Part shown: positions 3,161 to 52,256 of the stretch, piece by piece | Position numbering within the stretch: the stretch's first letter is position 1 | Layout of the letters: each line of letters starts with the position of its first letter | IMG/VR virus record: IMGVR_UViG_3300029267_002377 | Location: 1-64,000 of that record | DNA length: 64,000 nucleotides | Origin: a virus | Strand: one strand, 5' to 3' | Position numbers and translations under genes: made by a program | The notes under the pieces: model-generated | Told to the model about the DNA's origin: nothing | The model's database searches: none | What the model saw: only the letters and a program-made list of their open reading frames with translations

Positions 3161-4212
3161 AGGTTGATCTGCATTATAGCAACAACCCCCCATTTACTGA
3201 CTCCGACCTAGAACAAAAAGGCTTAGGTGGAACTGAGGGGTTTATCGTCCAGTCAGCAAGGGAACTAGCCAGACAGGGCCACCAAGTGAGGCTCTATAAC
3301 CGCTCTCCCATTGAAACTACATCCAGTGAAGTTTTCTGGTCTAACATCTCTCGTTTCAACCCCCAGGAGGACCGAGATGTCTTCGTCAGTTTCCGGATGA
3401 GGGAGATTTTCAAAGAGCGCCCTAAGGGACTCAAGGTCATTATCCTGGCTGACACGGAAAGTGTTGGACTAGGAGATGATGTTAGAAATGGGTTGGTTGA
3501 TTTGGTGATGTTTGTGTCTCAGTGGCAAAAAGACAAAATTGCCACTGAGGAGAATATTCCAGATGAATACTGCATGGTTACAGCCAACGGAATCAAGTTA
3601 GAGGAGTTTGAGAAGAAAATTGACAAAGTTCGAGGCATGTGCATCCATACCAGTACTCCTGAACGTGGCTTGTCTCATATCCTCGACATCTGGCCCAAAA
3701 TCCAAGTCCTCCAGCCAGAGGCTTCTTTACACTTATTTTCAAGTTACTACGGCTGGGGAGCGAAACCCGAGGAGAACCAGAATATGTGCGCTGCTCAGTA
3801 CGCTCAAGCTGAATTTTTAGAAAAGACCGGGCACAACATTGTCAACCATGTCCACGTTGGAGCAGAGGAGTTGAGAGAGTGGCAGCTTAAATCTGAACTG
3901 TTTTTGTACCCCACCGCCTTTAAGGAGACGTGTTGTATATCGGCATTAGAGGCAGCAGCAGCAGGATCTGTTTTGGTTTGTTCCGACGTGGCTGCTCTAC
4001 ACGAGCGAGTGGTAGATGGAGAAACGGGTTATTTGATTCCAGGAGAAGTTGGGACTTCTGAGCACGACTGGAACTTTGTGTCGAAAGTTAATTCGCTCCT
4101 AATGGATCAAGCCAAACTAATGAATATGGCGCACACTGCTCAGGAATGTGCTAGGAGTTACGACTTTGAGGTTCTGGTGAGGGATTGGGTGGAAAAATGG
4201 CAAAGCCCCTAG
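3157..4212 (+). CDS. GT4 glycosyltransferase
   Basis: GLGGTE, TSTPERGL and YPTAFKETCCISALEAAAAG motifs. Confidence 0.9.
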   Translation: MKVDLHYSNNPPFTDSDLEQKGLGGTEGFIVQSARELARQGHQVRLYNRSPIETTSSEVFWSNISRFNPQEDRDVFVSFRMREIFKERPKGLKVIILADTESVGLGDDVRNGLVDLVMFVSQWQKDKIATEENIPDEYCMVTANGIKLEEFEKKIDKVRGMCIHTSTPERGLSHILDIWPKIQVLQPEASLHLFSSYYGWGAKPEENQNMCAAQYAQAEFLEKTGHNIVNHVHVGAEELREWQLKSELFLYPTAFKETCCISALEAAAAGSVLVCSDVAALHERVVDGETGYLIPGEVGTSEHDWNFVSKVNSLLMDQAKLMNMAHTAQECARSYDFEVLVRDWVEKWQSP

Positions 4213-34859: not shown

Positions 34860-35217
34860 CTTCTTGATGGTTTTGGTTTATTTGTCGGTAACTGCAGCGA
34901 TAATCTGGCGGTTGGAAGTAATCTCCAATAAACTGGATCAGGCTAGGTTAGCTTATTTTGATAGCTACCAGAGAGCATCTAGCAAACGATACAAACCTTA
35001 CAAGCTAATCATCGCCGGCAACTATGGGCAGTTTAGGAACTGGGTTCAATCCCATGTTGTCAACGTCTTTGGAGAGCAGCACTTCATAAGGAGAGACCTT
35101 GATGAGGTTGAGTTTATCAAGGTGGGGGATTGGAGGGCGAATCCAAACCTTGACCGGTTGCAGGAACTTATGACCAAGGAGCAGTGGGAGCAATTTCTAA
35201 ATGACCCTGTATATTAA
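34849..35217 (+). CDS. Hypothetical protein with N-terminal transmembrane segment
   Basis: FLMVLVYLSVTAAIIW. Confidence 0.55.
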   Translation: MSTSFLMVLVYLSVTAAIIWRLEVISNKLDQARLAYFDSYQRASSKRYKPYKLIIAGNYGQFRNWVQSHVVNVFGEQHFIRRDLDEVEFIKVGDWRANPNLDRLQELMTKEQWEQFLNDPVY

Positions 35218-36211
35218 ATACCGCCCCTCAGAATGGTCAGAAGTAGCGGCCCAAAACCACATAGTCACTCCCCTGATGAACGCCCTCAAAAGAGGCGAAG
35301 TTGCTCAAACTCTTTTGTTCACCGGACGGCATGGGACAGGCAAGACCACAGTAGCTCGGATCCTAGCCGAGAAGTTGGGAGCAAAAGGGACTGATATTGT
35401 TGAGATTGACGCGGCCTCAAACCGAGGAATAGACGACGCCCGTCGTCTAAAAGAGGAAAGCTTTTTCATCCCCATCCACGGGGAGACAAAGGTTTTCATC
35501 ATTGACGAATGTCACATGTTAACGAAAGAGGCCAACAATGCCCTACTGAAGATCCTCGAAGAACCACCGCAAGGAGTTTATTTCGTTTTGTGTACAACAG
35601 AAATCTCAAAGATCCCCGCAACTATTAAATCTAGGTGCCAGCAGCACAGTTTTAAACCTATTGGGAGTACCGCTATTGAGGAAAGACTCCAGTTGATCTG
35701 TGAGAAGGAAGGGATTGAGTTTGAAAATGATGCTCTTCATATGATTGCTCGGCAGGTACAAGGTTCAATGCGTGATGGCATCTCAGTGCTGGATCTCCTC
35801 TCCAACTTTGGGTTTGTCAGCACAACAAAGACAAAAGAAGTGCTAGGGATGGCTGATATTGCTCTGGTTAGAAAAATGATAAGCTCACTTGCAAGCGAGC
35901 AGCTGGACTTGTGTTTAAACACAGTGGCCGAGGTGACAACCAGTGGAGTTAATTTGAAAGAATTCTGTTCTCAGGTGACTCAATATTTTCACGAACTATT
36001 ACTTATACAGGCAGGACAAGGCGATCAAGCAGTAATTGCTAATGCAGAGGACGCTAAAAGGTTTAGTTATCAAGGAGTAGTTAAGGCGGTTGAGATTTGG
36101 AATGCTTCTGGTAACAACCTTCACAAATATGCCTGGCCGGAGCTAGAATTGGAACTTGCTGCTATTGAGTGCTTGGATTATGGCATATCCTCAATACAAG
36201 GAGATTTCTAG
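35201..36211 (+). CDS. dnaX: DNA polymerase III gamma/tau-like clamp loader subunit
   Basis: LYIKYRP, GTGKTT, EIDAASNRG, IIDECHML, NALLKILEEPP, TIKSRC and GSMRD motifs. Confidence 0.95.
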   Translation: MTLYIKYRPSEWSEVAAQNHIVTPLMNALKRGEVAQTLLFTGRHGTGKTTVARILAEKLGAKGTDIVEIDAASNRGIDDARRLKEESFFIPIHGETKVFIIDECHMLTKEANNALLKILEEPPQGVYFVLCTTEISKIPATIKSRCQQHSFKPIGSTAIEERLQLICEKEGIEFENDALHMIARQVQGSMRDGISVLDLLSNFGFVSTTKTKEVLGMADIALVRKMISSLASEQLDLCLNTVAEVTTSGVNLKEFCSQVTQYFHELLLIQAGQGDQAVIANAEDAKRFSYQGVVKAVEIWNASGNNLHKYAWPELELELAAIECLDYGISSIQGDF

Positions 36212-36290
36212 GTATGGCAAGGCTTGACTCGGTGGGGCTTGACGTGGCGTGGTCAGGCAGTGCACAGTAAGGCTAGGCACGGTTTGGCAG
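36211..36290 (+). repeat. GGY-NN pentamer array 1 (16 units), candidate guide RNA
   Basis: ggtat ggcaa ggctt gactc ggtgg ggctt gacgt ggcgt ggtca ggcag tgcac agtaa ggcta ggcac ggttt ggcag. Confidence 0.9.
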
Positions 36291-36324
36291 GGGGTAAGAA
36301 GGCATCATTTTTATTGATGTTCGA

Positions 36325-36389
36325 GGCCGGCTGTGGTAGGGTGGGGCGGGATTTGTTATGGTGAGGTGGGGCGAGGTTGGGCCGGGCAA
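36325..36389 (+). repeat. GGY-NN pentamer array 2 (13 units)
   Basis: ggccg gctgt ggtag ggtgg ggcgg gattt gttat ggtga ggtgg ggcga ggttg ggccg ggcaa. Confidence 0.88.
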
Positions 36390-36418
36390 GGAACATTATC
36401 AAAGGGGGTAAATTCTAT

Positions 36419-36904
36419 GTGAGCGATTGGAGACAGAAAGTCTTAGAAAGGGACAGCTTTGAGTGTCAGTTATCAAAGTTGTTCGGAATCACTGAACTGA
36501 CTGGTGTACCTTGTTCAGAGGAGTTAGAAGTACACCATAAAACATACAAAAGGTATGGATACGAACTCCTCAAAGATGGAATAACCGTTTGTAGGCGGTG
36601 CCATGACATTCTAACTGATGGGATAAGACGAGAGCGCTATTTGGCTCGAGATATTACTCCCCAAAGAGAAAGAAAAGTCAAAGTGGTTACACCGCCCGAA
36701 AGGAAAAAGAAAAGTGAAAAAGTTGAACTTTACAATCGTAGGAATAGCACCTCTGCTGATGCACAACGGGCGGCTGGCAGACAGAGACGACCCGTACGCT
36801 CGAAAGATGGGGGAGATCACATCCAAGAGGAAAAAGACCGACGCCGACTTCGAAGAGCTGGATCGCTTAGCCTTCCTAGGCGCCCTCTACCTGGACGAAA
36901 ATGA
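36419..36904 (+). CDS. HNH endonuclease (C-terminal tail overlaps the RAMP gene)
   Basis: WRQKVLERD-x-F-x-CQ...LEVHH-x-x-Y...GITVCRRCH; likely GTG start at 36419 after GGGGG. Confidence 0.8.
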   Translation: MSDWRQKVLERDSFECQLSKLFGITELTGVPCSEELEVHHKTYKRYGYELLKDGITVCRRCHDILTDGIRRERYLARDITPQRERKVKVVTPPERKKKSEKVELYNRRNSTSADAQRAAGRQRRPVRSKDGGDHIQEEKDRRRLRRAGSLSLPRRPLPGRK

Positions 36905-37292
36905 TGAACCCTGTATACCTAGCTATGTATTCGAGGCTTGCATTATCGGAAAGGGTGGAGCTGCTAGGAAAGAGAGAATGGGCAAGGAATCCGCAGCGGC
37001 TTTCTGGGTTCTAGATGATGCTCCACTGAAGTATGAAGGCTCTAGGATTCCACAGGAACTACAAAAGAACAAGAAGTTTGTATTTGAGGCCCTTGTAAAT
37101 GTTGGGCAAAGCAAGGTTAAGCGGATACGACCTATTTTCAAACAGTGGTCGGCTGATATTACTGCTGAGTTCAATGAGAACCTCTTGGATGAGGAAGCCG
37201 TTAGGCGGTGGATTGAGGTTGCTGGTGAGCAGGTGGGACTAATGGACTGGCGACCTCGGTTTGGTCGGTTCACTGTTGAGTGGAAGGATTAG
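36714..37292 (+). CDS. Stand-alone Cas7/RAMP-like protein (Vipr-like candidate)
   Basis: Beta1 FTIVGIAPLLMH, PCIP (compare RAMP P-x-IP), R-x-RP-x-F-x-x-W and C-terminal G-loop GLMDWRPRFGRFTV; flanked by pentamer arrays. Confidence 0.75.
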   Translation: MKKLNFTIVGIAPLLMHNGRLADRDDPYARKMGEITSKRKKTDADFEELDRLAFLGALYLDENDEPCIPSYVFEACIIGKGGAARKERMGKESAAAFWVLDDAPLKYEGSRIPQELQKNKKFVFEALVNVGQSKVKRIRPIFKQWSADITAEFNENLLDEEAVRRWIEVAGEQVGLMDWRPRFGRFTVEWKD

Positions 37293-37297
37293 TGAAA

Positions 37298-37332
37298 TTG
37301 GTGAGTATGGGTTCGATTCCTATACTCGCCAA
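37298..37332 (+). ncRNA. T-loop minihelix hairpin
   Basis: 14-bp stem TTGGTGAGTATGGG/CCTATACTCGCCAA with loop TTCGATT. Confidence 0.7.
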
Positions 37333-37339
37333 ATCTCGA

Positions 37340-37419
37340 GGCTGGGTTTGGCTCGCTCCGGCAGGGTAGGACAAGATCAGGTCGGGCTAGGTCAGGTATG
37401 GCGGGCCCCGGCTAGGCAG
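37340..37419 (+). repeat. GGY-NN pentamer array 3 (16 units)
   Basis: ggctg ggttt ggctc gctcc ggcag ggtag gacaa gatca ggtcg ggcta ggtca ggtat ggcgg gcccc ggcta ggcag. Confidence 0.9.
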
Positions 37420-37446
37420 GGGATTTTCAATCATCTACAAAACCAA

Positions 37447-37526
37447 GGCGTGGACCGGCCCGGTAAGGTGGGGCAGAGCTCGGCAAGACGAGGTTCGCCT
37501 GGGCATGTTCAGGCTGGCCAAGGCAA
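37447..37526 (+). repeat. GGY-NN pentamer array 4 (16 units)
   Basis: ggcgt ggacc ggccc ggtaa ggtgg ggcag agctc ggcaa gacga ggttc gcctg ggcat gttca ggctg gccaa ggcaa. Confidence 0.88.
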
Positions 37527-37530
37527 GGGT

Positions 37531-38415
37531 ATGTTAACTTCAGCATCCGCCATCTCCCAATTTGTCAAACTACAGCCGTCAGGTGAACGTCTCACTGGGC
37601 TTTGTCCCTTTCACAACGACGAAGTTAGTAGTTTAGTTGTTTACCCGGGAGACCGTGGTTGGTACTGCTTCGGTTGTGGTCGTGGGGGTGGAGTTATTCA
37701 ATTCCTCATAGAAAGGGGAATGACCTACTCCCAAGCCAAGCAATGGTGCGACCTAAGAGAAGGCAAGATCCCCGAACCGCAGTTCACCCCACAGTTCAAA
37801 AAGAAAAAGAAAGCCAAACCTTCTCACCAGGTTGTAGATTACTGGCATTCGCTTCTAGGAGATCACAGAGAATATTTTCATTCAAGGTTGTTAACAGATG
37901 AAACAATTAACAAATACCGACTTGGGTGGACAGGTATACGTTTCTCAATTCCCTTCTGGTCAAGGGAACCGGGTAATAGCCAAGTTGTAGCAGTTCAAAG
38001 TAGGAGGAACAGTGGTGGAGGACCAAAGTACAGGTGGGAGTTGGGGAGTCAGCCTCATGTATTCAACTTGGGTGATGTTAAGGGATCTGGAACTATTTTG
38101 GTCTTTTTCTCAACGTTGGATGCGCTCTTGGCAAGACAGGACGGATTACGAGCGGTCGCAGCTCCTGGACAGACAGTGGGAGTTTCGTCGTGCCGTGCTG
38201 AGCTCGCCTCAAAAACGAAGGATATGCTAGGATCTAGGGATATGATTGTCATTCCTGACCGAGGAGAGGAGCAGATGGGTTATAAGCTAGCTCATCTCCT
38301 AAGTTGTGAAGTGTTTGAGTGGCCGGAAGGTCTGTTCACAGATTATTGTGAGTTTCGTTTACAGAATGAAGCGAGAATTTTTAAAAATTTATTGGGAGGG
38401 TATTATGGCGACTGA
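37531..38415 (+). CDS. DnaG-like primase (CHC2 zinc finger plus divergent TOPRIM)
   Basis: GLCPFHND...WYCFGC; PKY motif; start moved to ATG 37531 just after array 4. Confidence 0.82.
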   Translation: MLTSASAISQFVKLQPSGERLTGLCPFHNDEVSSLVVYPGDRGWYCFGCGRGGGVIQFLIERGMTYSQAKQWCDLREGKIPEPQFTPQFKKKKKAKPSHQVVDYWHSLLGDHREYFHSRLLTDETINKYRLGWTGIRFSIPFWSREPGNSQVVAVQSRRNSGGGPKYRWELGSQPHVFNLGDVKGSGTILVFFSTLDALLARQDGLRAVAAPGQTVGVSSCRAELASKTKDMLGSRDMIVIPDRGEEQMGYKLAHLLSCEVFEWPEGLFTDYCEFRLQNEARIFKNLLGGYYGD

Positions 38416-38604: not shown

Positions 38605-38787
38605 ATGGATCCAAACTGGTATGGTTGTCAAACCTGCGCAAAAAAAGAAGAGTGCGACTTAGTACCTAAGAAAACAGAGGGAAAGAAGACCTTGCTATGG
38701 CCTATGACATATTGTCCGGAGCGTGTAGATGAAAGTCGCAGATTACGAGAGGGCGGTGATAGCGGGGATTCTGCTAAACCCGAGTGA
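38605..38787 (+). CDS. Small Cys-containing protein
   Basis: CQTC...C...C. Confidence 0.4.
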   Translation: MDPNWYGCQTCAKKEECDLVPKKTEGKKTLLWPMTYCPERVDESRRLREGGDSGDSAKPE

Positions 38788-40183
38788 GTTGCTAAATCCA
38801 ATAGCAGCTGAACTGTCAGAAGACAAGTTCGGCTATGGGCCAGGTCACGAAAGAGCAGACAGTCACAAGTTAATATATCAAGGAATACTGGACTTAAAAA
38901 TCAATAAGAAACCTATAGACCTGGCCAACCTTGAAAAACAACTAGGCGACACTCTAGAGATGGCAGGAGGTTCAGTATATTTGAGAAGCATACTGGATGT
39001 TCCTGAAAAATTGAGATTGTCAATAAATAGACCTGCGGTATTTAGTTGGGCGCAGGTAGTGGACGATGCGGGTCGACTGAGACATTTGGGAATGGTGATT
39101 GACACTTACCACCAAAAGTATCAGGATTTTGAGAATCTTGTATCAACTGTCTCCGATGTGGATGCTTTTATGAGTGACGTGGTGGGAGATATTCAAAAAG
39201 CGCAGGGGTTGCTGAGGCATGAGTATAGACCATTCCGAGAGGGTGTGGAGGAGTTTAGGCGGCACTTGGCGCATAACATCGTGGGAGAGGTTACACAGAT
39301 ACTTCCTATGGGATGGCCAGCGCTTTTTCAAATGGGGATACCTCCGAAGCAGGGCTTAATGGTGATCTCAGGGCTTGAGGGCTCGGGCAAGACTCAGTTG
39401 CTCCTACAGATTCTCCTAGGCCGAGTAATTCAGATGAAAGCCAACAACCAACCAGGTTGCGTCGCGTTCAATTCGTACGAGATGCCGGGGTGGAAGTTAG
39501 CAAAGAGGTTAGCGTGTTGCCTGGCGGGGGTAGATGGGCACCAACTGGCATTGGGACAGTATGAAGAAGACAGCGATGAAGTTCGGCGAGTTCAGGAGGC
39601 TTTGGAGTTTCTTGAGACTTTACCAATTTACTATGATGATTCTCAAATGATGACCTCAGATGCTATTCACTGGCAATCAAACGCCTTACATGCCAATTGT
39701 GGGCCACTGACAGATTTGGGAATTGATTATGCTGAGCTGGTTCCCGATAAAGCAGAAACAGAGGAGTTGAGGGTATCTAGAATCTATAAAAACGCAGCAA
39801 GGTTGGTTGCGATTGGTGCTACATCGTACATGGTGTCCCAACTCAACCGAGGGGCACAGATGACTACTTCAAAACTGGGGGGCAAGGGTAGATTGCGCTA
39901 CACCGGAGTTGCTCAGCATGTGTCTCATGCCATCGGGGAGTTGTATAATATACCCGCTATGCTTGCTGCGGGGGAGGAGTTCTCTATCCCCGATGAGTAC
40001 GATAAAGACAAGGCTTATTTTATTTTGGAAAAGAACCGAGATGGCCCAACAGGGGCGATTCCTTTGACCTGGGATGGACCTTGCACGAGATTTGCTGATG
40101 ACTCATTATCAAAGAAGTTTGGACCGTCTTCGTTGTATGAAAATCTAGACAGAGTAAGATCAATGACAGTAGGAGATTTTTAA
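38729..40183 (+). CDS. dnaB: DnaB-like replicative helicase
   Basis: GLEGSGKT, SYEM, IDYAEL, SQLNR and LEKNRDGPTG motifs. Confidence 0.92.
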   Translation: MKVADYERAVIAGILLNPSELLNPIAAELSEDKFGYGPGHERADSHKLIYQGILDLKINKKPIDLANLEKQLGDTLEMAGGSVYLRSILDVPEKLRLSINRPAVFSWAQVVDDAGRLRHLGMVIDTYHQKYQDFENLVSTVSDVDAFMSDVVGDIQKAQGLLRHEYRPFREGVEEFRRHLAHNIVGEVTQILPMGWPALFQMGIPPKQGLMVISGLEGSGKTQLLLQILLGRVIQMKANNQPGCVAFNSYEMPGWKLAKRLACCLAGVDGHQLALGQYEEDSDEVRRVQEALEFLETLPIYYDDSQMMTSDAIHWQSNALHANCGPLTDLGIDYAELVPDKAETEELRVSRIYKNAARLVAIGATSYMVSQLNRGAQMTTSKLGGKGRLRYTGVAQHVSHAIGELYNIPAMLAAGEEFSIPDEYDKDKAYFILEKNRDGPTGAIPLTWDGPCTRFADDSLSKKFGPSSLYENLDRVRSMTVGDF

Positions 40184-51113: not shown

Positions 51114-51848
51114 ATGAGGTATCTGAGTCATAGCCAGATAAGTTCGTACGAAAGATGTCCTTTCCAGTGGTACGCTTCCTACGTTTTGAGGTACAGAAGA
51201 GAATCCAACGCTGATTTTGCAGAGGGCCGAGCAGTTCACGCTGCGATAGCTTCTCACTGGCAAGGGAACAAATACTGGGAGAAGACCTTACGGGCTAACT
51301 TGGATAAGGAGCTCGAGGGTATCGAATTGGAGCCCCCTCCAGGATTTGGGCAAGTTGAGAAAGCTGAATTAGTAAACTCTATTTTCACTCGAGACAGTGT
51401 TCTGATTCGCAATATGCTTGACTTATTGGAAACAAAGTTCGGAGATGGAGTTGAGACGATAGAAGTTGAAAGGAAACAGAAGAAAAATGGGTTTGTTGGG
51501 GTTATAGACTGGCGAGGCAGGCTCAATTCTGTTGAGTACATTATTGACTGGAAGACTTCGGGCAAAGCCTACAAGGAAGAACGAGTTCACGAAGATGAGC
51601 AGTTGACGGCTTACGCTGCCTTAACTGGGGTTCGGCACGTTGCGTTTGGAGTGATGAATAAAAGCGACTTGACGGTTCAATTTCTGACCAGTGCCCGGAC
51701 CAAAGATGAGTGTACTGCTTATTGGGAAAAGGTTGAGTACATTCGGAGCTTAATGGACGCCGAGGGGCCCTACGCTCCTTGTAACGAGGGGTGGTGGTGT
51801 AATTGGTGTTCTTTTCAGCGAATGTGCCCGCTATTTGGGGACTTCTAA
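51114..51848 (+). CDS. Cas4/AddB-like PD-(D/E)XK exonuclease
   Basis: LS-x-S...CP, G-x-x-x-H, G-x-ID, IIDWKT, QL-x-x-Y and CNWC-x5-C motifs. Confidence 0.88.
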   Translation: MRYLSHSQISSYERCPFQWYASYVLRYRRESNADFAEGRAVHAAIASHWQGNKYWEKTLRANLDKELEGIELEPPPGFGQVEKAELVNSIFTRDSVLIRNMLDLLETKFGDGVETIEVERKQKKNGFVGVIDWRGRLNSVEYIIDWKTSGKAYKEERVHEDEQLTAYAALTGVRHVAFGVMNKSDLTVQFLTSARTKDECTAYWEKVEYIRSLMDAEGPYAPCNEGWWCNWCSFQRMCPLFGDF

Positions 51849-51852
51849 ACAA

Positions 51853-51937
51853 GGCTGGGTTGGGCAGGATTTGGCCAGGTAAGGCCGAGTTGGGCCCGGC
51901 TTGGTAAGGTGGGGCGAGGCTTGGTTAGGCAGGGCAA
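51853..51937 (+). repeat. GGY-NN pentamer array 5 (17 units), orphan copy
   Basis: ggctg ggttg ggcag gattt ggcca ggtaa ggccg agttg ggccc ggctt ggtaa ggtgg ggcga ggctt ggtta ggcag ggcaa. Confidence 0.9.
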
Positions 51938-52256
51938 GGACAGACTGAGGTTAAAACAGAACTTAGTAACAGAACGAGGATCTAAATGCGAATGCTGCGG
52001 TGAGAATGCGATTTTGGACCTGCACGAGGGCATCGTCACCAGGGCTGATGCTGGGAGAGACTGGAAGGATCTAATATTTGTTCCTTACAACTGTTTTCTC
52101 CTGTGTCGAAATTGTCACACAAATTGGGGTAAAGTCTTTCCTAGGGAGAAAGCGTGGGAAGTTTCTTGCGAGCGGTATGGAGAGGAGGCAGTGAGAGAAT
52201 GGTATAAAACTTTGCCGTGGAAAATAGGAGTGCCGAGGAGGTTTTGGGATGAATGA
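51909..52256 (+). CDS. HNH-like endonuclease (start lies within array 5)
   Basis: KCECCG...DLHE...NCFLLCRNCH. Confidence 0.75.
   Translation: MGRGLVRQGKDRLRLKQNLVTERGSKCECCGENAILDLHEGIVTRADAGRDWKDLIFVPYNCFLLCRNCHTNWGKVFPREKAWEVSCERYGEEAVREWYKTLPWKIGVPRRFWDE

What the first reader, a model, noticed from the sequence alone, without database searches (positions are those of the whole stretch)
36211..37530. Stand-alone Cas7/RAMP-like gene flanked by four GGY-NN pentamer arrays: candidate phage RNA-guided system with a non-contiguous code
Seen: between dnaX and the primase lie arrays of 16, 13, 16 and 16 pentamers (36211-36290, 36325-36389, 37340-37419, 37447-37526), in pairs separated by AT-rich linkers. 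With array 5, 59 of 78 units begin with exact GGY, every other unit differs by one base, 77 of 78 have a pyrimidine at position 3, and positions 4-5 vary freely. Every array ends GGCAR-GG. The NN strings differ: A1 AT AA TT TC GG TT GT GT CA AG AC AA TA AC TT AG; A2 CG GT AG GG GG TT AT GA GG GA TG CG AA; A3 TG TT TC CC AG AG AA CA CG TA CA AT GG CC TA AG; A4 GT CC CC AA GG AG TC AA GA TC TG AT CA TG AA AA. The enclosed 192-aa protein has RAMP-like hallmarks (beta1 ending PLLMH, P-x-IP, C-terminal G-loop). No CRISPR repeat-spacer array or cas1/2/3 is present in the window. Established: Cas7-family RAMPs polymerise along guide RNA with a fixed nucleotide period. Inference: each array is a 65-85 nt guide bound by one subunit per pentamer, with GGY as scaffold and NN specifying a possibly gapped target such as a rival phage or host gene. 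This matches my unverified recollection of VIPR systems (Vipr protein plus GGY/NN RNAs), so it may be a new member rather than a new class.
Basis: partly seen in the sequence, partly recalled or inferred. Interest (0 to 1): 0.96.

Follow-up and report, generated by a model that had tools for sequence, protein, structure and literature searches.

The report
Phage VIPR locus with HNH nuclease
This is a real member of the recently published VIPR family of phage RNA-guided DNA-binding systems (a Cas7-like protein plus GGY-NN pentamer guide RNAs), so it is not a new class, and one of its guides appears aimed at the clamp-loader gene of rival phages.

Summary
The complete 108,853-bp phage genome has five GGY-NN pentamer arrays, all on the + strand: four flank the 192-aa gene and one lies 14 kb away. 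They hold 78 units: 59 exact GGY, 19 one base off, and 77 with a pyrimidine at position 3. Shuffled sequence gives none.

The protein is a Vipr. It matches the solved SUSP1 Vipr protein (PDB 36pp) over its full length (E 6e-29; profile 4e-57). It keeps the residues that hold G1, G2 and Y3, and its model (pLDDT 97.7) resembles Csm3/Cas7.

This is a new member of a known kind.

- An HNH nuclease gene sits directly upstream of vipr and overlaps it. The pair is conserved in 15 of 16 related viral contigs.
- The arrays end in GGCAR-GGR, with no SUSP1-type tail.
- Under the published one-base-skip rule, guide A1 spells the sensor-1 block of phage clamp loaders, matching 25-28 of 32 positions in four viral loci (three distinct contigs). 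The phage's own dnaX, just upstream, matches only 20 of 32.
- Guide A5 resembles the last codons of the adjacent Cas4-like gene.

No targets were found for A2-A4. No expression data exist. The host is unknown.

The parts
36211..36290 (+). vrRNA array A1: 16 GGYNN units. Its first G is the last base of the dnaX stop codon. It ends GGCAG and is followed by GG.
   Evidence: Under the one-base-skip rule it matches the clamp-loader sensor-1 block of other viral contigs at 25-28 of 32 positions.
36325..36389 (+). vrRNA array A2: 13 units, ending GGCAA and followed by GG. It lies 34 nt after A1 and 29 nt before the HNH start.
   Evidence: No target found.
36419..36904 (+). HNH endonuclease gene, the candidate vipr-accessory (vap) gene. 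It has a GTG start, encodes 161 aa, and its last 191 nt (stop codon included) overlap the vipr start, with vipr in the +1 frame.
   Evidence: Pfam HNH E 4e-4, just below the curated cut-off. PHROG HNH families score down to E 2e-9. A homolog lies directly upstream of vipr in 15 of 16 IMG/VR loci, and it overlaps vipr in all 12 loci examined.
36714..37292 (+). vipr gene, encoding the 192-aa RAMP protein that is the VIPR effector.
   Evidence: PDB 36pp_D 'SUSP1 Vipr protein' E 5.8e-29; profile E 3.8e-57. phrog_4652 E 5.5e-52. AF2 pLDDT 97.7. Top Foldseek hits are Csm3/Cas7 subunits.
37340..37419 (+). vrRNA array A3: 16 units, ending GGCAG and followed by GG.
   Evidence: No target found.
37447..37526 (+). 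vrRNA array A4: 16 units, ending GGCAA and followed by GG, 4 nt before the primase ATG.
   Evidence: The seed scan gave only chance hits.
51853..51937 (+). Solo vrRNA array A5: 17 units (15 exact GGY). It starts 5 nt after the stop of a Cas4-like nuclease gene and lies inside the open frame of a second HNH-like gene.
   Evidence: Its best match in the phage's own genome is the last codons of the adjacent Cas4-like gene.
35570..35616 (-). The phage's own dnaX sensor-1 site, homologous to the predicted A1 target. It matches A1 at only 20 of 32 NN positions.
   Evidence: The own protein reads EISKI where 63 of 65 phage homologs have a Pro at the second of these five residues.
51804..51853 (+). 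The 3' end of the phage's own Cas4-like gene (51114-51848) plus the stop codon. It matches A5 at 23 of 34 positions, in codon phase.
   Evidence: P times positions 0.044. Cas4 family match.
36120..36149 (+). Promoter-like site (10 of 12 matches to the consensus hexamers) inside the dnaX 3' end, about 60 nt before A1. It is a consensus match only.
   Evidence: The number of such sites in the region is not above shuffles.

Best explanation
The locus is a VIPR (Viral Interference Programmable Repeat) system carried by a complete 108.9-kb phage with direct terminal repeats, recovered from sediment and seawater metagenomes. By homology with SUSP1 VIPR, Vipr protomers are expected to coat each array transcript, one protomer per pentamer. 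They would hold G1, G2 and Y3 and expose the NN dinucleotides, which pair with double-stranded DNA while every third target base is skipped. The phage carries five guides: four around an HNH-vipr gene pair inserted between dnaX and the primase gene, and one solo guide 14 kb away. Guide A1 is predicted to bind the antisense strand of the sensor-1 block of clamp-loader genes of other phages, while the phage's own diverged dnaX escapes. Guide A5 probably targets the 3' end of the Cas4-like nuclease gene of close relatives. The conserved, overlapping HNH gene suggests that this clade cuts bound DNA rather than only silencing it. What is shown: the array anatomy, Vipr homology, conserved GGY-contact residues, the Cas7-like fold, HNH-vipr linkage, and the in-silico A1 target with controls. 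What is inferred: transcription and processing of the arrays, filament formation, DNA binding, HNH recruitment, and the benefit in competition between phages.
For: Arrays: exact counts and no equivalents in shuffles.

Protein:
- The match to PDB 36pp_D 'SUSP1 Vipr protein' covers the full length, E 5.8e-29 alone and 3.8e-57 as a profile.
- The SUSP1 GGY-contact residues H17, R138, D177, W178 and R179 (paper 10.64898/2026.04.26.720927) align to H17, R139, D178, W179 and R180 here. Four of these five (H17, R139, R180 and D178's neighbour excluded) are nearly invariant in 132 homologs: H17, R139 and R180 are listed as such; D178 and W179 are not.
- The model has pLDDT 97.7. The listed Foldseek hits at E <= 0.001 are CRISPR effector-complex chains, mostly type III Csm backbone subunits, at probability about 1.0.

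Family context: 14 of 19 homolog loci show same-strand GGY arrays, including Felixounavirus wV8 and the Gordonia and Mycobacterium phages.

HNH: it is conserved upstream of vipr in 15 of 16 loci, and it overlaps vipr in all 12 loci examined.

Target of A1:
- An 18-base seed scan of IMG/VR gave 4 loci (three distinct contigs). All lie in DnaX-like genes at the same motif, with the skipped base on the codon wobble position, and the whole guide matches 25-28 of 32.
- Chance seed hits for A4 and A5 extended by only 2-4 of 14-16 further positions, apart from one hit in a low-complexity tail gene, and were out of codon phase.
- On 80 further DnaX loci the best A1 site is the sensor-1 block in all of the top-scoring loci I inspected (mean 0.71). 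Guides A2-A5 average 0.54-0.59, and 100 unit-order shuffles of A1 never exceed 0.69.

No site in the phage's own genome reaches 80%.
Against: There are no RNA data. No RNA run holds the phage, so transcription and processing are unproven. No conserved 3' tail like the SUSP1 pseudoknot is present, only GGCAR-GGR. SUSP1 K33, which is needed for repression, aligns to G33 here, although R30 and K31 are nearby. A 28 of 32 match in a database of this size is only marginally significant by itself; I estimate E of about 0.03-0.2 per guide. The support therefore rests on the codon phase, the family-wide control and the adjacency to the phage's own homolog. The A1 target contigs encode DnaX proteins only about 34% identical to this phage's, and it is unknown whether they share a host. 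Guides A2-A4 have no target. The Pfam HNH score is just under the curated cut-off.
Confidence: 0.9

Rival explanations
1. Self-regulation. The guides bind the phage's own genes through partial complementarity (A1 on dnaX, A5 on the Cas4-like gene) and tune or time their expression, rather than attacking rivals.
For: The best A5 match in the phage's own genome is the adjacent Cas4-like 3' end (23 of 34, in phase, P times positions 0.044). A1 matches the phage's own dnaX at 20 of 32, which ties the genome maximum.
Against: Both matches fall below the published threshold of 80%. A1 matches foreign clamp loaders better (25-28 of 32) than the phage's own gene. The A5 mismatches to the phage's own gene include synonymous recodings of Ser and Leu, which looks like avoidance. 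The papers report no self-targeting in other VIPR loci.
Confidence: 0.07
2. RNA-guided homing or marker exclusion. Each guide is linked to the phage's own resistant allele of the gene it targets. During co-infection Vipr-HNH cuts the rival allele, and repair from the VIPR phage copies the resistant allele together with the guide or cassette into the rival genome.
For: A1 lies next to the phage's own diverged dnaX and A5 abuts the phage's own diverged Cas4-like gene. An HNH gene follows both A2 and A5. The HNH-vipr cassette sits in unrelated gene neighbourhoods in L002 and L003, so it is mobile. Guides of L002 and L003 also have their best partial self-matches close by in their own loci (P times positions 0.004 and 0.03).
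Against: The A1 target genes that were found are too diverged (34% amino-acid identity) for homologous repair. The two HNH proteins are unrelated to each other. The L002 partial match is not in wobble phase. There is no evidence that the HNH cleaves or is recruited.
Confidence: 0.15
3. The arrays are not guides. They are G-rich pentamer tracts with another role, such as ribosome-binding mimicry, transcript stabilisation or a DNA structure, and the RAMP-like protein acts independently.
For: No expression data exist. The arrays lie tightly between genes of one operon with no terminators. An HNH start codon may lie inside A5.
Against: Arrays co-occur with Vipr homologs on the same strand in most loci, including the experimentally studied Felixounavirus type (papers). 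The GGY-contact residues are conserved. A1 has a specific target that passes controls.
Confidence: 0.03

Closest known systems
Type II VIPR of Escherichia phage SUSP1 (bioRxiv 10.64898/2026.04.26.720920, 10.64898/2026.04.26.720927 and 10.64898/2026.10.15.759431; PDB 36pp)
   Same: A homologous Vipr protein of the same length and fold, with conserved GGY-contact residues. GGY-NN arrays of 13-17 units lie on both sides of vipr on the same strand. It is phage-borne and there is no CRISPR array. Solo vrRNAs occur elsewhere in the genome. The guide matches coding DNA with the skipped base on the wobble position, and the self-match is lower than the non-self match.
   Different: Sequence identity is only about 37%. 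The accessory gene is an HNH nuclease upstream of vipr and overlapping it, not a DNA-binding vap1 downstream. There is no conserved pseudoknot tail, only GGCAR-GGR. K33 is not conserved. The predicted target is a core replication gene of other phages, not a satellite recombinase or prophage regulator. The system is embedded between dnaX and primase with no room for its own promoters or terminators.
Nuclease-associated VIPR types III-V (same preprint; HNH vap shown in its fig. S21)
   Same: A Vipr protein plus a predicted nuclease accessory gene. The guides match viral sequences in IMG/VR.
   Different: The paper reports these types as enriched in cellular defence islands and interprets them as host immunity. 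Here the HNH-vipr pair lies in a complete DTR phage, and its 15 relatives are on IMG/VR viral contigs. I could not assign a type because the paper's tree and tables are not held.
Class 1 CRISPR backbone RAMPs (Csm3/Cas7)
   Same: An RRM core, a thumb hairpin and a glycine-rich loop. The best structural matches are Csm3 chains.
   Different: About 12-14% identity. Binding has a 5-nt period, not 6-nt. No repeat-spacer array was found, and I did not screen all ORFs for cas1/2 or large or small subunits.
Free-standing phage homing HNH endonucleases (for example T4 Mob/Seg-type marker exclusion)
   Same: A small HNH gene inserted between conserved replication genes, next to an allele that differs from the rivals' allele.
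   Different: Specificity here would come from an RNA-guided partner. No cleavage site or homing has been shown. This is analogy only.

Membership tests
VIPR system | Vipr protein: a minimal RAMP homologous to characterised Vipr | tested here: met
   Full-length match to PDB 36pp_D SUSP1 Vipr, E 5.8e-29; profile E 3.8e-57. 2,494 representative homologs.
VIPR system | RRM core with thumb and G-loop (RAMP fold) | tested here: met
   AF2 pLDDT 97.7, with a beta-hairpin at 123-142 and a Gly-rich loop at 175-185. Foldseek top hits are Csm3/Cas7, probability 1.0, TM about 0.5.
VIPR system | Residues that read G1, G2 and Y3 (SUSP1 H17, R138, D177, W178, R179) | tested here: met
   They align to H17, R139, D178, W179 and R180 (residues from the paper).
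VIPR system | Target-backbone contact K33 of SUSP1 | tested here: not met
   It aligns to G33, with R30 and K31 nearby. The paper does not state this as a family-defining residue.
VIPR system | Tandem YNNGG/GGYNN repeats (9-16 units in the SUSP1 and P. fulva clades) next to vipr on the same strand, with GGY conserved and NN variable | tested here: met
   13-17 units; 59 of 78 exact GGY; 77 of 78 with Y at position 3; mixed NN. The same holds at homolog loci.
VIPR system | Invariable structured 3' tail after the repeats (a pseudoknot in the SUSP1 clade) | tested here: not met
   Only GGCAR-GGR is shared by nine array ends in the window, L002 and L003. No Rfam match and no hammerhead. The paper describes the tail for type II only.
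VIPR system | Minimal locus with an accessory vap gene and no CRISPR array | tested here: met
   The HNH gene is conserved next to vipr in 15 of 16 loci. No CRISPR-like repeats.
VIPR system | Guides match DNA by the one-base-skip rule at 80% of NN positions or more, with no self-target | tested here: met
   A1 matches 26, 26 and 28 of 32 on three of the four loci (two of which are identical at the site), and 25 of 32 on the fourth. Control. No site in the phage's own genome reaches 80%. A2-A5 have no hit at 80% or more.
VIPR system | vrRNAs are expressed and co-purify with Vipr, and changing NN redirects binding | not testable with these tools
   No RNA run holds this phage.
CRISPR-Cas (class 1) | Repeat-spacer array plus cas1/cas2 and multi-subunit effector genes | tested here: not met
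   No such repeats in the window. The only Cas-like hit is a phage Cas4-type exonuclease. A full cas gene screen was not run.

The most novel reading that the evidence does not exclude
In this HNH-bearing clade, VIPR would work as an RNA-guided homing or marker-exclusion cassette. Each guide is kept physically linked to the phage's own resistant allele of the essential gene it attacks in relatives (A1 with dnaX, A5 with the Cas4-like gene). Cutting of the rival allele during co-infection would then drive the resistant allele plus guide into the rival genome. The paper views nuclease-associated VIPRs as host defence; this would instead place one at work inside a phage replication module.
Probability: 0.15. 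Interest if true: 0.8.

Novelty: new member of a known kind. Interest (0 to 1): 0.45.

Why it matters
The finding shows that a reader working from sequence alone can recover a VIPR locus, and it adds a well-resolved natural example from an uncultured marine or sediment phage. Three points would interest people working on VIPR. First, an HNH nuclease is tightly and conservedly coupled to vipr on viral contigs, whereas the discovery paper linked nuclease-type VIPRs to cellular defence islands. Second, a natural guide is predicted to hit the most conserved block of a core replication gene (clamp-loader sensor-1) across a broad phage family, while the carrier's own allele has lost the near-invariant proline there. 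Third, guides sit next to the carrier's own diverged copy of the gene they appear to target, which hints at how guide and immunity stay linked. None of this changes the known mechanism.

Tried and rejected
I could not fetch the long contigs of the closest Vipr relatives (P0005, P0023, P0024, P0045) or of the Cas4-like relatives.
- Seed scans of IMG/VR, each using 9 units (18 fixed bases): A3 middle, 0 hits. A5 middle, 0 hits. A2 middle, 0 hits. A4 middle, 5 chance hits. A5 first nine, 6 chance hits.
- The metagenome scan for Cas4-like relatives returned only a fragment of the same phage.
- The genome-collection scan for Vipr gave one contig of a Phycisphaerae MAG, identical to L002. This is a weak hint to the host of a relative, not of this phage.
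- The A4 pattern with up to 3 mismatches was not found in 401 genomes of that MAG's phylum.
- Sequencing runs: only DNA runs from sediment and seawater were listed, and no RNA holder.
- Complex prediction of Vipr with the HNH protein returned no verdict.
- Apparent N-terminal fusions on some Vipr homologs are not HNH domains. Several are visibly upstream arrays translated by gene callers.
- The two HNH proteins of this phage are not detectably related to each other.
- tblastn of DnaB and of a target DnaX against cultured phages gave only distant hits, so no host could be inferred.
- The partial A3 matches on the A1-target contigs are out of phase and at chance level.
- The paper's supplementary tables are not held, so no type I-VII assignment was possible.
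Full report
**Observation**

The sequence at 36211-37530 is as described. A script cut the four arrays, plus a fifth at 51853-51937, into pentamers. It returned 78 units: 59 exact GGY, 19 one base off, and 77 with C or T at position 3. Positions 4 and 5 use all four bases.

A scan for 5-nt-phased GGY finds only these five places in the window. All are on the + strand, none on the - strand, and none appear in 20 shuffles. The window is the first 64 kb of a complete 108,853-bp virus record with direct terminal repeats. In the whole genome a looser scan adds only one weak 5-of-8 site, at 98275.

All larger ORFs in the neighbourhood run on the + strand. They are a DnaX-like clamp loader (35201-36211), a CHC2 primase (37531-38415) and a DnaB helicase (38729-40183). 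A1 starts on the last base of the dnaX stop codon, and A4 ends 4 nt before the primase ATG.

**What the protein is**

The 192-aa product has no Pfam family, but it matches phrog_4652, of unknown function, at E 5.5e-52. It has 2,494 representative homologs. Against the PDB sequences it matches one entry, 36pp chain D, 'SUSP1 Vipr protein'. The match covers the full length, with E 5.8e-29 for the single sequence and 3.8e-57 for a profile of 132 homologs.

The structure preprint names the residues that hold the GGY bases as H17, R138, D177, W178 and R179. In the alignment these are H17, R139, D178, W179 and R180 here. H17, R139 and R180 are nearly invariant in the family. K33 of SUSP1 aligns to G33.

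AlphaFold2 gives pLDDT 97.7. Foldseek against the PDB returns type III Csm3/Cas7 subunits as the top matches, with probability 1.0 and 12-14% identity.

**What is known**

Three preprints of 2026 describe VIPR. A Vipr RAMP oligomerises, one protomer per repeat, on vrRNAs made of alternating GGY and NN. The NN dinucleotides pair with double-stranded DNA while one target base in three is skipped. Natural targets are satellites, prophages and rival phages. Seven types are defined by Vipr phylogeny, array architecture and accessory (vap) genes. A fourth preprint recovers VIPR arrays from 5-nt entropy periodicity.

**Relatives**

Sixteen IMG/VR loci and three cultured phages (Felixounavirus wV8, Gordonia phage Trine, Mycobacterium phage LittleE) encode homologs. 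Fourteen of the 19 show GGY-phased arrays on the vipr strand next to the gene.

**The HNH gene**

An ORF from 36419 (GTG) to 36904 has an HNH motif (Pfam E 4e-4, just under the cut-off; PHROG HNH families down to 2e-9). It overlaps the first 191 nt of vipr, stop codon included; vipr lies in the +1 frame.

A homolog lies directly upstream of vipr in 15 of the 16 IMG/VR loci. It is absent from L015, wV8, Trine and LittleE. In all 12 loci I examined it overlaps the vipr start by 70-190 nt in the same relative frame. In L002 and L003 nothing but HNH and vipr is shared with this phage, so the pair moves as a cassette.

This is a true accessory gene. Whether the two proteins touch is open. The conservation of the HNH tail is largely explained by the conserved vipr codons beneath it.

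**Array ends**

All nine array ends in the window, L002 and L003 read GGCAR (once GGCAT) followed by GGR. Beyond that the flanks differ, apart from similarity between arrays at equivalent positions. There is no Rfam match and no hammerhead. A promoter-like site lies at 36120-36149, but such sites are no more frequent than in shuffles, and no + strand terminator was found.

I infer that the guides are cut or trimmed out of the replication-operon transcript, with the last unit serving as a constant cap. This is inference only.

**Targets**

I applied the published one-base-skip rule. In the phage's own genome no site reaches 80% for any guide.

An 18-base seed from the middle of A1 found four IMG/VR loci, representing three distinct contigs because L021 and L023 are identical at the site.
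- All four hits lie in DnaX-like genes, on the antisense strand, at the sensor-1 block, with the skipped base on the codon wobble position.
- The whole guide matches 26, 25, 26 and 28 of 32 positions. The three distinct target proteins are only 37-39% identical to each other yet share this block exactly.
- Of the 14 positions outside the seed, 7-10 match, against 3.5 expected. My binomial estimate for 10 of 14 is about 3e-4.
- Chance seed hits obtained with A4 and A5 extend by only 2-4 positions and are out of phase. One exception lies in a low-complexity tail gene.
- On 80 further DnaX loci, the best A1 site in every top-scoring locus I inspected is this block, and scores are 19-26 of 32 (mean fraction 0.71). 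The other four guides average 0.54-0.59, and 100 unit-order shuffles of A1 never exceed 0.69.

The phage's own dnaX, immediately upstream of A1, keeps the first eight residues of the block but reads EISKI afterwards. Of 65 homologs, 63 have Pro at the second of these five positions. The phage's own site scores 20 of 32.

A5 has its best match in the phage's own genome at the last 14 codons plus the stop codon of the adjacent Cas4-like gene. The match is 23 of 34, in phase, and P times positions is 0.044. Its mismatches include Ser and Leu codons recoded synonymously. Several residues that the guide encodes but the phage's own gene lacks occur in relatives' C-termini. The exact target was not found.

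A2, A3 and A4 gave nothing above chance.

**Interpretation**

The best-supported reading is a VIPR system used against other phages, aimed at conserved blocks of replication and recombination genes. The carrier's own alleles would be protected by a few changed codons. This extends the published finding that self-match scores are lower than non-self scores.

The HNH partner suggests cleavage. Each decodable guide lies next to the carrier's own copy of its target gene. Weaker signs of the same pattern appear in L002 and L003. Together these allow, but do not show, a homing or marker-exclusion mode.

**Limits**

There is no RNA evidence. The host is unknown; the only cellular hit is a Phycisphaerae MAG contig that looks like phage DNA. 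It is not known whether the A1 target phages share a host with this one. Type assignment was not possible.

**Verdict**

This is a new member of a known kind, with some features worth the attention of VIPR specialists.

Noticed in passing
window 51849-52256: The second HNH-like ORF is open from the stop of the Cas4-like gene straight through array A5. It has no ATG, GTG or TTG between the array end and its CxxC motif, so its start codon, if it is translated, lies inside the array. It is unrelated to the vipr-linked HNH (E 0.14).
   Followed up: partly
proteins P0151, P0161, P0235, P0195 and P0190 (homolog lists): Several database Vipr homologs carry N-terminal 'extensions' of 40-100 aa that are visibly translated upstream GGY-NN arrays (Gly/Trp/Ala/Arg-rich repeats). 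Gene callers absorb vrRNA arrays into the vipr ORF.
   Followed up: yes
L019 3585-4388 (Gordonia phage Trine gp40): The annotated CDS downstream of the Trine vipr homolog overlaps two GGY-phased arrays (3613-3702 and 3747-3796). Its 5' part may be a mis-annotated vrRNA region.
   Followed up: no
window 35570-35617 (dnaX codons 124-139): The phage's clamp loader lacks the near-invariant Pro of the sensor-1 flank (63 of 65 phage homologs have it) and reads EISKI instead of the usual D/E/N-P-x-K-L.
   Followed up: partly
L037 / L002 (LJUF01000001.1, MAG Phycisphaerae bacterium SM23_33): The IMG/VR contig with the 76%-identical Vipr is the same DNA (99.95%) as a 34-kb contig binned into a Phycisphaerae MAG. 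Its neighbours look like phage head-tail genes, so it is a prophage or a mis-binned phage.
   Followed up: partly
window 36923-37273, minus strand: A 116-aa antisense ORF inside vipr is also 'conserved' in L002 and L003 (52-62% identity). This is most likely a by-product of vipr conservation, not a gene.
   Followed up: no
L003 6877-6920: The single guide of the L003 phage matches its own ribonucleotide-reductase-like gene at 20 of 30 positions in codon phase (P times positions 0.03). This fits the pattern of a guide resembling the carrier's own diverged copy of an essential gene.
   Followed up: partly
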